Shown here in pieces: positions 6,001-9,000 of a stretch of DNA of 64,000 nt; position 1 is the stretch's first letter, and each line of letters begins with the position of its first letter. Location of the stretch: assembly GCF_051903065.1 (NCBI RefSeq), contig NZ_CP178438.1. One strand, written 5' to 3'. Position numbers: made by a program. The stretch is from Escherichia coli (lineage in GTDB: Bacteria; Pseudomonadota; Gammaproteobacteria; Enterobacterales; Enterobacteriaceae).

Positions 6001-9000
6001 AAGAGATTGATGAATTACGCTGGTCGCTGTGCACAATAGCCATGAACACTGCCCATTTATCCTTCGAGTGCGTGGTGTTATTAGCAGAAAGATTGCGGTG
6101 GTTACAGGAGGAAAATACCGGGGAAATAGACGAAGAAGAACTGGAATCCTTTTTATATGCCATTGCGAAGGGGAATGTTTTTAACTTCCAGACCATTCTG
6201 CATCTGCCCGTTGCCGTGCAAAATGACACCATCGATTTTTACCAAATGTTCGCTCGGATTTGGTCATCGCATCCAGAATGGCTGACATTGTATTTAGCGC
6301 AACATCGCGCAGTGATTATCCCCGATGATGCAAAACTGCACAGAAATTTACTCCGCTGGTATAGCGCAGGTCGCCTGGGAATTCCCGAACTCCTGGATTA
6401 CGCCCGGTCGTGGCGGGAAGCTGAACCTGATAATGAAGATGCGCGTTATTATGAATACGCGCAACGCGTCTATTGTGGAGAAGGCAAAAGCCTGCTGGCA
6501 GAACTTTGTGACTACTGGCGCGAATATCCCTCCACCCAGGCGGATGCTTTAATGTTGCAATGGTGCCGTCAGCATCGGGTCGATTATTACCCATTAGTGG
6601 TGATGATGATTGAAGCGCGTGATCTGGTTAACGATCAGGGAAAACCGCTACTTTATGTCCCTGGTGACAGCGCTCGTACGCGTTTTCATTTATACGAAAT
6701 ACTCAGTGATGAAAAACTCTCTGCGCTGGGGCGTTCTCTGGTCGAGATGGTTTTGCACAAAGGACGTAAGCCGCGGATCTCACTCACGCGTGATACAGAA
6801 CATCCCTTATGGCCATTATATTTAGTTGCCAAACAATTAGTGCAGGCCAGCCAACCAACAGAAGAATCATTAATGCCGATCGTAAGCCGTCTTGATGCAG
6901 AAAATCGTTGTCCACTGGAAGCATTAATTATTCGTCGATTATTAATTCAGGCGGCGAATTTTACCGAGAAGCAAACTGTTGAACCGGAGCCGCAACCGCA
7001 GCCAATGCCCGTTGACGATGGTGGGCCAGGCTGTCTGGGCATCATTAAAATTATTTTCTATATTTTTATCTTTGCTGGTTTGATAGGGAAAATACTCCAT
7101 CTGTTCGGGTGACAGTCGACGTTAATGTGCGGGAAGCCCGGCAAGTAATCTTTCCGCATTTTTGTAATGTTGTTTGGCGGCCAGTTTTAACCATTTTTGA
7201 GATTCATAATGGTTAACATTAATACCTGAGCCATTTCTGTAGATCAAACCTAAAGTATATTGAGCATGAGCATACCCTTGTTCAGCTGCTTCCTTATACC
7301 AGAGAATTGCTTTACGGGTGTCGGGTTTGACCCCCAGACCTTTGAGGTAGATCCACCCCAGTTTACTTTGCGCGCGTGGATTTTCCTGTTCCGCTGATTG
7401 CTCATACCAGTATCTCGCCTGTGTATAATCCAGTGGTTTACCGTCGCTACCATGAAGATAAAATTCTCCAAGGCGATATTGCGACGTTGAGTGACCATGA
7501 ATCGCGGAAAGCTCCGTGGCTGCCGTGGTGAATGGAAGACTGCCCGGTGAGCTTAAATAATCAAAGGCAAAATTCACCATGGCTTTATCACGCAACGTCG
7601 TTTTCTTGGGTTGGCTAATACAGGTAATTGCTGCAACTATAAAAATTGCGAATATATACATTAATTTTTTATTCATGTGTGAATGCTTCGATTTTCTTTT
7701 TATTTTGAAAGCGTCAAGTTTATACTCATCAATAATAAAAAAGTAGTCAGTTAATGCACTTAAGGGATTATTAACAAATGAATAAGGAAGAACAATATCT
7801 TCTTTTTGCGCTTTCTGCGCCCATGGAAATACTTAATCAGGGTTGCAAACCCGCGCATGACTCGCCAAAAATGTATACCGGGATAAAAGAATTCGATCTC
7901 TCATCATCCTGGGGAATAAATAATCGTGATGATTTAATTCAGACTATTTATCAGATGACTGATGATGGTCATGCTAATGATTTAGCTGGCTTATATCTGA
8001 CATGGCATCGCTCTTCTCCTGAAGAGTGGAAAGCATTAATTGCTGGTGGCTCGGAGAGAGGGTTGATTTATACCCAATTCGTTGCCCAAACCGCTATGTG
8101 CTGTGGAGAAGGGGGAATCAAAGCCTGGGATTATGTTCGAATGGGGTTTCTGTCACGGGTCGGTGTGCTCAACAAGTGGCTGACGGAAGACGAGAGTTTA
8201 TGGCTGCAATCGCGCGTCTATGTACGAGCTCACCATTACTATCACAGCTGGATGCACTATTTTTCTGCCTATTCACTAGGGCGTCTCTACTGGCAATCTT
8301 CTCAGTGCGAAGACAACACTTCGCTACGCGAGGCGCTAACCCTGTACAAATACGATAGCGCCGGGAGTCGTATGTTCGAAGAACTGGCAGCGGGAAGCGA
8401 TCGTTTCTATGCCACGCTTCCCTGGCAGCCATTAACTGTCCAGCCTGAATGCCCGGTAACGCTTAAGGATGTGAGCGACCTATGAAAACATGTTGGCAAA
8501 TCCTCGAAATTGAAAGCACGACGCAAATAGACATTATCCGCCAGGCTTATCTTGCTCGCTTACCGTTATGTCATCCCGAAACCGATCCGCAGGGGTTTAA
8601 AGCATTACGCCAGGCCTATGAAGAGGCGCTGCGACTGGCGGTAAATCCTGTCGAGGAAGCAGATGATGAAGAAAAAGATGCCGCCGCTGAACATGAAATA
8701 CTACGTGCATTCAGGACATTACTGGATTCAGAAAGTGATCGTTTTCAGCCTTCCGCCTGGCAGAAATTTATTCAGCAATTAAATACCTGGAACATGGAGG
8801 ATGTCGATCAATTACGCTGGCCGCTGTGTGCAATCGCTATAGAAGCGCGATATCTTTCATTAAATTGTGCTTCTTTGCTGGCAGAGCGTTTGAACTGGCA
8901 TTCGTTTAATGACAGCGAAGGAATAGATGAGGAAGAAAGGGAGGCTTTTTTTGAGGCCATTCAGGCTGGTGATTGTTTCGATTTCCTTAGCCTTCTGGAA

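What the first reader, a model, noticed from the sequence alone, without database searches (positions are those of the whole stretch)
7110..7124. Convergent stop codons of djlB and ybeT only 9 bp apart
The djlB stop (7110-7112) and the minus-strand ybeT stop (7122-7124) are separated by 9 bp with no terminator hairpin between them. Transcripts from the two genes must overlap in their 3' ends, which gives potential for antisense interference between the first J-protein and the second Sel1 gene.
Basis: seen in the sequence. Interest (0 to 1): 0.3.

Follow-up and report, generated by a model that had tools for sequence, protein, structure and literature searches.

The report
Tightly packed convergent genes djlB/ybeT
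Two E. coli genes that face each other end 9 bases apart, which is real but ordinary: about a quarter of facing gene pairs in E. coli are packed at least this tightly, and there is no evidence that the pair regulate each other.

Summary
djlB (+, 5685-7112) stops at TGA 7110-7112. ybeT (-, 7122-7676) stops at TAA, read as TTA at 7122-7124. The spacer is 9 nt (CAGTCGACG). RefSeq annotates it the same way, and the spacer length is the same in K-12, in a 95%-identity E. coli strain and in three other Escherichia species.

It is not unusual. In about 400 kb of annotated E. coli sequence, 13 of 57 other convergent CDS pairs have stop codons 9 bp apart or less, or overlapping. Published work reports overlapping 3' ends for 75% of E. 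coli convergent operons.

It lies inside the last 12 codons of ybeT. It may end djlB transcripts about 50 nt into ybeT, but the support is marginal: z -1.7, about 4% chance expectation, and no compensatory changes. ybeT has no recognisable intrinsic terminator.

Overlapping 3' ends are therefore likely whenever both genes are transcribed. Functional antisense interference is unsupported. The pair is absent from the published MG1655 list of convergent overlapping gene pairs ("excludons"). No double-stranded RNA cluster or mapped 3' end is reported there. Both genes are nearly silent in laboratory transcriptomes. There is no extra synonymous-site constraint. Verdict: ordinary, low interest.

The parts
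5685..7112 (+). djlB CDS (475 aa; tail-anchored J-domain protein). It is the second gene of ybeR-djlB and overlaps the ybeR stop by 4 nt at 5685-5688.
   Evidence: ORF list; RefSeq annotation; weak DnaJ domain; 50% identical end to end to DjlC; tail-anchor statement in PMC8215388.
7110..7112 (+). djlB stop codon TGA
7113..7121 (.). 9-nt spacer CAGTCGACG between the two stop codons. It contains the 6-nt palindrome GTCGAC and is too short for a terminator.
   Evidence: The length is fixed but 3 of 9 positions vary across Escherichia.
7122..7124 (-). ybeT stop codon (TAA on the - strand)
7122..7676 (-). ybeT CDS (184 aa, 3 Sel1 repeats)
   Evidence: Orthologues were found only in Escherichia.
7127..7160 (+). 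Candidate intrinsic-terminator hairpin for djlB transcripts: stem GUGCGGGAAG / CUUUCCGCAU (10 bp, including 2 G-U pairs), 13-nt loop, -12.1 kcal/mol. It lies inside the last 12 codons of ybeT.
   Evidence: z -1.69; 11 of 200 shuffles fold as well. All 60 alignment cells are paired, with three one-sided pair-preserving changes and no compensatory change. The consensus scan missed it because the loop exceeds 8 nt.
7159..7168 (+). U-rich tail UUUUUGUAAU; the first U is also the last stem base. The predicted djlB 3' ends are at about 7163-7168, which is K-12 678893-678898.
   Evidence: Only one of these ten positions (7164) varies in seven Escherichia sequences. The 3' end position is inferred, not mapped.
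7020..7121 (-). Region downstream of the ybeT stop on the - strand, antisense to the djlB tail-anchor codons. It has no intrinsic terminator and is mildly C>G (C/G 1.1-1.8). ybeT transcripts probably run into it.
   Evidence: the - strand hairpin is -7.6 kcal/mol, z 0.0, with no U tail. The termination mode is inferred.
7677..7777 (.). AT-rich divergent ybeT/ybeU promoter region (GC about 0.32-0.35 in the overlapping 300-nt windows)
   Evidence: Both directions exist as promoter fusions (pUA-ybeT, pUA-ybeU) in a published library.

Best explanation
This is an ordinary, tightly packed tail-to-tail junction between two paralogous gene modules of the Escherichia hscC locus. The modules are ybeQ(-)/ybeR-djlB(+) and ybeT(-)/ybeU-djlC(+).

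No terminator fits in the 9-nt spacer, so each gene's transcript must end inside the other gene.

djlB transcripts most likely end, at least partly, at a weak intrinsic-terminator-like hairpin plus U-tract (7127-7168). It sits in the last 12 codons of ybeT and would give about 45-55 nt of antisense overlap with the ybeT 3' end.

ybeT transcripts have no intrinsic terminator. They probably continue antisense into the djlB tail-anchor codons until Rho, RNA polymerase collision or decay ends them.

The overlap is a by-product of gene packing, as in most E. coli convergent operons. It is not a dedicated regulatory device.

Shown: the coordinates, conservation of the spacing, the frequency of such spacing, the existence and marginal statistics of the hairpin, and very low expression. 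Inferred: where transcripts actually end, and the absence of function.
For: - Geometry and annotation.
- Spacing is common: 13 of 57 sampled convergent CDS pairs are 9 bp apart or less.
- 75% of 370 convergent operons overlap, by 286 nt on average. 165 convergent excludons have been mapped in MG1655.
- Hairpin plus U-tract. It is the only + strand hit between djlB and ybeU at -10 kcal/mol or better. Base pairing is retained in all 6 distinct sequences.
- No - strand terminator.
- The modules are old paralogues: YbeR/YbeU 59%, DjlB/DjlC 50%, YbeT/YbeQ about 38% identity.
- Against a regulatory function: the pair is absent from the core excludome. No dsRNA cluster or RNase III site is listed. 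No mapped 3' ends are reported. Reads are 7 RPM or less on both strands. DjlB, DjlC and HscC are below detection in exponential growth. There is no excess synonymous constraint: 11 variable third positions in the last 36 djlB codons against a median of 12.
Against: - The spacer length is strictly conserved across the genus, and the right arm of the hairpin plus the run of five U's is invariant. Window 7140-7169 has only 3 variable sites against a typical 7-10. Some constraint beyond coding is therefore possible.
- The absence of transcript data may only reflect silence of the locus in laboratory media, so regulation under inducing conditions is untested.
- The hairpin may be a chance structure. 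About 4% chance of a hit within 60 nt of a stop, z only -1.69, and a 13-nt loop that is atypical. Only 2 of 26 gene ends in other tight pairs have such a hairpin, which is the chance rate.
Confidence: 0.72

Rival explanations
1. Convergent excludon. The overlapping 3' ends are a functional mutual-repression device (transcriptional interference or RNase III cleavage of the duplex), so expression of ybeR-djlB lowers ybeT and the reverse.
For: The tail-to-tail geometry leaves no room for insulation. The spacer length is conserved across Escherichia. Excludon pairs have shorter intergenic distances than other pairs, and 10 of 13 equally tight pairs I sampled are listed as excludons. The junction is the only one of three convergent junctions in the locus without a strong two-way hairpin.
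Against: The pair is not in the MG1655 core excludome. No p19 dsRNA cluster or RNase III site is listed for djlB or ybeT. rnc mutants show no rise in either gene: 2.9 to 1.1-1.4 RPM for djlB and 1.2 to 0.5-0.9 RPM for ybeT, although the counts are too low to be decisive. Synonymous sites show no extra constraint. Natural strains delete ybeR and most of djlB and keep ybeT intact.
Confidence: 0.1
2. Noncontiguous operon. The weak hairpin leaks, so + strand transcription from ybeR-djlB runs antisense across ybeT and on into the co-oriented ybeU-djlC. This would co-express both J-modules while opposing ybeT.
For: ybeR-djlB and ybeU-djlC share orientation and flank the 555-nt ybeT. Only one weak + strand terminator candidate lies between them. 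Antisense reads over ybeT exceed sense reads (3.1 vs 1.2 RPM).
Against: ExcludonFinder reports only three noncontiguous operons in MG1655, and this is not one of them. djlC is several-fold higher than djlB and ybeU (16.5 vs 2.9 and 1.8 RPM). ybeU also has its own AT-rich promoter region, which is used as a promoter fusion. All read counts are near background.
Confidence: 0.08
3. The hairpin is a chance structure imposed by ybeT coding sequence. Both transcripts end only by Rho-dependent termination or decay, at scattered positions well inside the partner gene.
For: z is only -1.69, with 11 of 200 shuffles folding as well. The relaxed scan gives 85 hits per 128 kb of strand. The 13-nt loop and 2 G-U pairs are atypical of terminators. 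Embedded terminators occur at chance frequency in other tight pairs. No compensatory changes were seen. Mildly C>G untranslated RNA lies downstream of both stops.
Against: Five consecutive U's follow the stem directly. All three stem substitutions keep pairing, while 4 of 13 loop positions vary. It is the only candidate on the + strand before ybeU.
Confidence: 0.35

Closest known systems
Overlapping convergent transcription units / convergent excludons of E. coli (Conway et al. 2014, PMC4161252; ExcludonFinder 2025, PMC12288877)
   Same: Both are tail-to-tail genes whose 3' ends cannot be insulated, so transcripts of one run antisense into the other. A short intergenic distance is typical of that class.
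   Different: The pair is not in the published MG1655 list. Overlap and reciprocal expression have not been observed here, and expression is near background.
Rho-independent (intrinsic) terminator embedded in a neighbouring gene's transcription unit
   Same: A stem-loop immediately followed by a U-run, 15 nt downstream of the djlB stop codon, on the correct strand.
   Different: The loop is 13 nt (3-8 is typical). The stem has only 4 G-C pairs and 2 G-U pairs. Stability is only marginally better than shuffles. No mapped 3' end is available.
Bidirectional terminators and REP elements between convergent genes (Ju et al. 2019, as summarised in bioRxiv 10.1101/2022.10.23.513370; REP preprint 10.64898/2026.03.23.713779)
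   Same: Same genomic setting. The neighbouring junctions of this locus are of this kind: ybeL/ybeQ has a two-way hairpin and djlC/hscC has a REP-like palindrome.
   Different: At djlB/ybeT the hairpin is weak on the - strand (-7.6 kcal/mol, z 0.0) and has no U tail there. It lies inside an ORF rather than in a spacer.
Noncontiguous operon (reviewed in PMC7154746; three E. coli cases in PMC12288877)
   Same: An opposite-strand gene (ybeT) sits between co-oriented genes (djlB and ybeU).
   Different: Co-transcription across ybeT has not been shown, the locus is not among the reported cases, and ybeU has its own promoter region.

Membership tests
Convergent excludon / overlapping convergent transcription units | Adjacent genes on opposite strands, tail to tail | tested here: met
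   djlB (+) ends at 7112 and ybeT (-) ends at 7122.
Convergent excludon / overlapping convergent transcription units | Transcripts of the two genes overlap in RNA-seq coverage | tested here: not met
   Only a literature check was possible. djlB-ybeT is absent from the 165 convergent excludons present in at least 50% of 58 MG1655 transcriptomes. No dsRNA cluster is listed. Low expression may explain the absence, so this does not exclude overlap under other conditions.
Convergent excludon / overlapping convergent transcription units | Reciprocal (mutually exclusive) expression caused by the overlap | not testable with these tools
   This needs expression data under inducing conditions and overlap mutants.
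Intrinsic (Rho-independent) terminator | G+C-rich stem-loop more stable than expected for the composition | tested here: inconclusive
   10-bp stem with 4 G-C, 4 A-U and 2 G-U pairs, a 13-nt loop, and -12.1 kcal/mol. z is -1.69, with 11 of 200 shuffles folding as well.
Intrinsic (Rho-independent) terminator | U-tract directly after the stem | tested here: met
   UUUUUGUAAU at 7159-7168.
Intrinsic (Rho-independent) terminator | Structure conserved, with covariation, in relatives | tested here: inconclusive
   All 60 cells are paired. There are three one-sided changes and no compensatory change. The shuffle control is uninformative because the 3' arm is invariant.
Intrinsic (Rho-independent) terminator | Mapped RNA 3' end at the U-tract | not testable with these tools
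   No 3' end for djlB or ybeT appears in the held supplements of Adams 2021, TERMITe or SMRT-Cappable-seq. The locus is barely transcribed.
Bidirectional terminator / REP between convergent genes | Hairpin stable on both strands and located between the two genes | tested here: not met
   The - strand fold is -7.6 kcal/mol with z 0.0 and no U tail, and the hairpin lies inside ybeT. By contrast the djlC/hscC palindrome has z -4.1 and -5.8, and ybeL/ybeQ has z -3.5 on both strands.
Noncontiguous operon | Co-oriented genes co-transcribed across an opposite-strand gene | not testable with these tools
   The architecture fits. The locus is not among the three reported MG1655 cases.

The most novel reading that the evidence does not exclude
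Under conditions that switch on this normally silent locus (for example relief of silencing, or cadmium or membrane stress), the insulation-free djlB/ybeT junction might act as a convergent excludon, or ybeT might act as the antisense-embedded gene of a noncontiguous ybeR-djlB-[ybeT]-ybeU-djlC operon. Either arrangement would set the ratio between the HscC co-chaperone modules and the second Sel1 protein.
Probability: 0.1. Interest if true: 0.35.

Novelty: already known. Interest (0 to 1): 0.1.

Why it matters
It matters little. The arrangement is already in the public annotation of E. coli K-12, and tight or overlapping convergent gene ends are common and well studied in E. coli.

The useful outcomes are practical:
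- A candidate weak terminator for djlB lies inside ybeT. Anyone deleting or recoding the 3' end of ybeT (for example the Keio ybeT mutant) may therefore alter djlB 3' end formation, and the reverse.
- Of the three convergent junctions in the hscC locus, this is the only one without a strong two-way hairpin.

If the locus were shown to be co-regulated through this junction, that would add one more example to a known class.

Tried and rejected
- Consensus terminator scan: no hit at the junction. It misses the hairpin because it caps the loop at 8 nt, so I wrote a relaxed scan.
- Published 3' end and transcript data: Adams 2021, TERMITe, SMRT-Cappable-seq and the Commun Biol 2023 interference paper have no entry for djlB or ybeT. 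Supplements of Dar & Sorek 2018, Conway 2014 and ExcludonFinder are not held. Ju et al. 2019 and Lybecker et al. 2014 are not held.
- Rfam search of 3000-12500: nothing at the junction. The only match is a weak naRNA4/REP hit in the djlC-hscC spacer.
- Test for extra synonymous constraint from overlapping function. The first ungapped attempt was invalid because an indel in E. whittamii djlB misaligned it. The MAFFT-based repeat shows no unusual constraint.
- Test of whether tight convergent pairs usually carry embedded terminators: they do not (2 of 26 gene ends, the chance rate). This lowers the prior for the djlB hairpin.
- Whether the duplication junction truncated ybeT: YbeT ends within a Sel1 repeat, but this cannot be told apart from a normal capping helix. 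Left open.
- PADLOC scan of the seven locus proteins: no defence-system match apart from one negligible hit.
- Strain HH97 as an extra divergent sequence: the locus is degraded or error-laden, so it was not used.
- Rho-utilisation composition: only mild C>G downstream of either stop. Inconclusive.

Full report
**What the window is.** The 701-bp query around the junction is 100% identical to E. coli strain Combat11I9 and matches 4290 of 5426 complete E. coli genomes. The region is the leuS-ybeL-ybeQ-ybeR-djlB-ybeT-ybeU-djlC-hscC-rihA locus. In K-12 MG1655, djlB is 677415-678842 and ybeT is 678852-679406, so window coordinate + 671730 = K-12 coordinate.

**Check of the observation.** The sequence reads ...TTCGGG TGA CAGTCGACG TTA ATGTGC.... 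djlB is 5685-7112 on the + strand and ybeT is 7122-7676 on the - strand. RefSeq annotation agrees. Pfam confirms YbeT as a Sel1-repeat protein and DjlB as a weak J-domain protein. DjlB aligns end to end with DjlC (50% identity), so its stop codon is the homologous one.

**Conservation of the spacing.**
- The 9-nt spacing is kept in a strain about 95% identical.
- It is kept in a strain that has deleted ybeR and most of djlB.
- It is kept in E. whittamii and two unnamed Escherichia species. There the spacer sequence varies (AAGTCGACC, CAGTCGGCG) but its length does not.
- YbeT orthologues were found only in Escherichia. The remaining hits are generic Sel1 proteins at 28-46% identity.

**Is the spacing unusual?** I tabulated convergent CDS pairs in the first 50 kb of the window and in seven 50-kb stretches of K-12.
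- Apart from djlB/ybeT there are 57 pairs.
- 13 of them (23%) have stops 9 bp apart or less. Eleven overlap (seven by 4 nt, the others by 12, 38, 86 and 113 nt). Two have spacers of 0 and 2 bp.
- The other 44 pairs have spacers of 28-380 bp.
- Small positive spacers are the less common form (3 of 57 in the 0-30 bp range). Functionally they belong with the overlaps, because a terminator cannot fit.

A preprint counts 704 convergent pairs in E. coli, so well over a hundred junctions should be this tight. Conway et al. found that 276 of 370 convergent operons produce complementary 3' ends overlapping by 286 nt on average. ExcludonFinder lists 165 convergent overlapping pairs in MG1655, and these have shorter intergenic distances than non-overlapping pairs.

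**What else is there.** The consensus scan found no terminator at the junction, but it only allows loops of 3-8 nt. Folding shows a + strand hairpin at 7127-7160:
- stem GUGCGGGAAG / CUUUCCGCAU, 10 pairs including two G-U;
- 13-nt loop;
- -12.1 kcal/mol;
- followed directly by UUUUUGUAAU.

It begins 15 nt after the djlB stop and lies within the last 12 codons of ybeT. It is the only + strand site between djlB and ybeU that passes a relaxed terminator filter.

**How strong is the case for this hairpin?** The support is marginal.
- z is -1.69, and 11 of 200 shuffles fold as well.
- The relaxed filter gives 85 hits in 128 kb of strand. That is about a 4% chance of one within 60 nt of any given stop.
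- Among the 13 other tight pairs, only 2 of 26 gene ends have such a site within 120 nt, which is the chance rate.
- Across six distinct Escherichia sequences, all 60 stem cells pair. The three stem substitutions (C to U opposite G, G to A opposite U, A to G opposite U) keep pairing, and 4 of 13 loop positions vary. There is no compensatory double change, and the 3' arm never varies, so the test has little power.

On the - strand the same sequence folds weakly (-7.6 kcal/mol, z 0.0) and has no U tail. No other terminator-like site follows the ybeT stop. The RNA there is only mildly C>G.

The two other convergent junctions of the locus do have strong two-way hairpins. The ybeL/ybeQ hairpin is -16.7/-14.7 kcal/mol with z -3.5 on both strands. 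The djlC/hscC junction has a REP-like palindrome at -26/-29.6 kcal/mol with z -4.1/-5.8.

**Most likely mechanism.**
- Shown: there is no room for insulation between the two stops.
- Inferred: djlB transcripts end, at least partly, at about 7163-7168. That would cover about 47 nt of the ybeT 3' end.
- Inferred: ybeT transcripts read into the djlB tail-anchor codons until Rho, polymerase collision or decay stops them.

So 3' overlap is very likely whenever both promoters fire in one cell.

**Does the overlap do anything?** All available evidence is negative or silent.
- djlB-ybeT is not in the MG1655 core excludome, although 10 of my 13 equally tight pairs are.
- In the p19 double-stranded RNA study, djlB and ybeT appear only in the per-gene tables (2-11 RPM of captured dsRNA, against 28-80 for ybeQ). 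They are not in the cluster or RNase III site tables, as far as those files are held.
- Total RNA gives 2.9 sense and 6.9 antisense RPM for djlB, and 1.2 and 3.1 for ybeT, against 448 for ybeL. rnc mutants show no increase. The strand column of that sheet is inconsistent with the annotation, so I use only the magnitudes.
- No 3' ends are reported in the locus body by Term-seq or SMRT-Cappable-seq supplements.
- DjlB, DjlC and HscC are below proteomic detection in exponential growth.
- Third-codon-position variability near the junction is normal. There are 11 variable positions in the last 36 djlB codons against a median of 12 for all windows. Overall fractions are 0.33 for djlB and 0.43 for ybeT. 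The only dip is a mild one at 7140-7169.
- Some natural strains have lost ybeR and most of djlB while keeping ybeT. 1155 of 5426 genomes lack the junction altogether.

**Context.** The locus consists of two old paralogous modules, each made of Sel1 (-), DUF1266 (+) and a J-protein (+). Identities are YbeR/YbeU 59%, DjlB/DjlC 50% and YbeT/YbeQ about 38%. They lie next to the specialised Hsp70 HscC, whose ATPase is stimulated by DjlC. The djlB/ybeT junction is the joint between the two modules. Its tightness could be a relic of the duplication end points, but the sequences are too diverged to test this.

Because ybeR-djlB and ybeU-djlC share orientation, leaky termination would make ybeT an antisense-embedded gene of a noncontiguous operon. 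That is the most novel reading not excluded. It is unlikely given the published maps and the higher, apparently independent djlC signal.

**Verdict.** The kind of feature is already known and common, so interest is low.

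Noticed in passing
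window 9934-9992: The 59-bp djlC/hscC convergent spacer holds a REP-like palindrome (about 9948-9983). It folds at -26 and -29.6 kcal/mol on the two strands (z -4.1 and -5.8) and gives a weak Rfam naRNA4 match (E 0.25, below the gathering score).
   Followed up: partly
window 3803-3828: The 69-bp ybeL/ybeQ convergent spacer has a hairpin with U-rich tails on both strands (z about -3.5 each way). It looks like a classic two-way terminator, in contrast to the djlB/ybeT junction.
   Followed up: partly
window 11649 and 11695 (K-12 683379 and 683425, - strand): The Adams et al. 2021 supplement lists 3' ends at the very start of hscC and 32 nt upstream of it. One of them is flagged Rho-dependent. 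This suggests premature termination control in the hscC leader.
   Followed up: no
L003 3663-4692 (strain AH19F006); L004 (strain 600055): Natural variants exist. One strain has a deletion joining a ybeQ remnant to the last 126 nt of djlB, with the 9-nt spacer and ybeT intact. Another has the locus scrambled by IS1 copies. 1155 of 5426 complete E. coli genomes lack the junction.
   Followed up: partly
window 5685-5688 and 8482-8485: ybeR/djlB and ybeU/djlC each overlap by 4 nt, with the start codon overlapping the stop. This suggests translational coupling within each module.
   Followed up: no
window 7602-7676 (YbeT N-terminus): YbeT begins with a hydrophobic, signal-like segment ([19 protein letters not shown]...) that its paralogue YbeQ lacks. 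The two Sel1 proteins may therefore sit in different compartments.
   Followed up: no
window 3840-7676 (ybeQ, djlB, ybeT); PMC7373196 Table S1c: In published total RNA-seq, antisense reads exceed sense reads for ybeQ (31 vs 9.7 RPM), djlB (6.9 vs 2.9) and ybeT (3.1 vs 1.2). All values are very low. The Strand column of that sheet disagrees with the annotation for several genes.
   Followed up: no
window 9993-11738: The mechanical ORF for hscC extends to a TTG at 11738 (581 aa). RefSeq starts it at the ATG at 11663 (556 aa).
   Followed up: no
L049 25213-25223 (K-12 2025213-2025223): [quoted passage not shown] This is another example of the same tight spacing.
   Followed up: no
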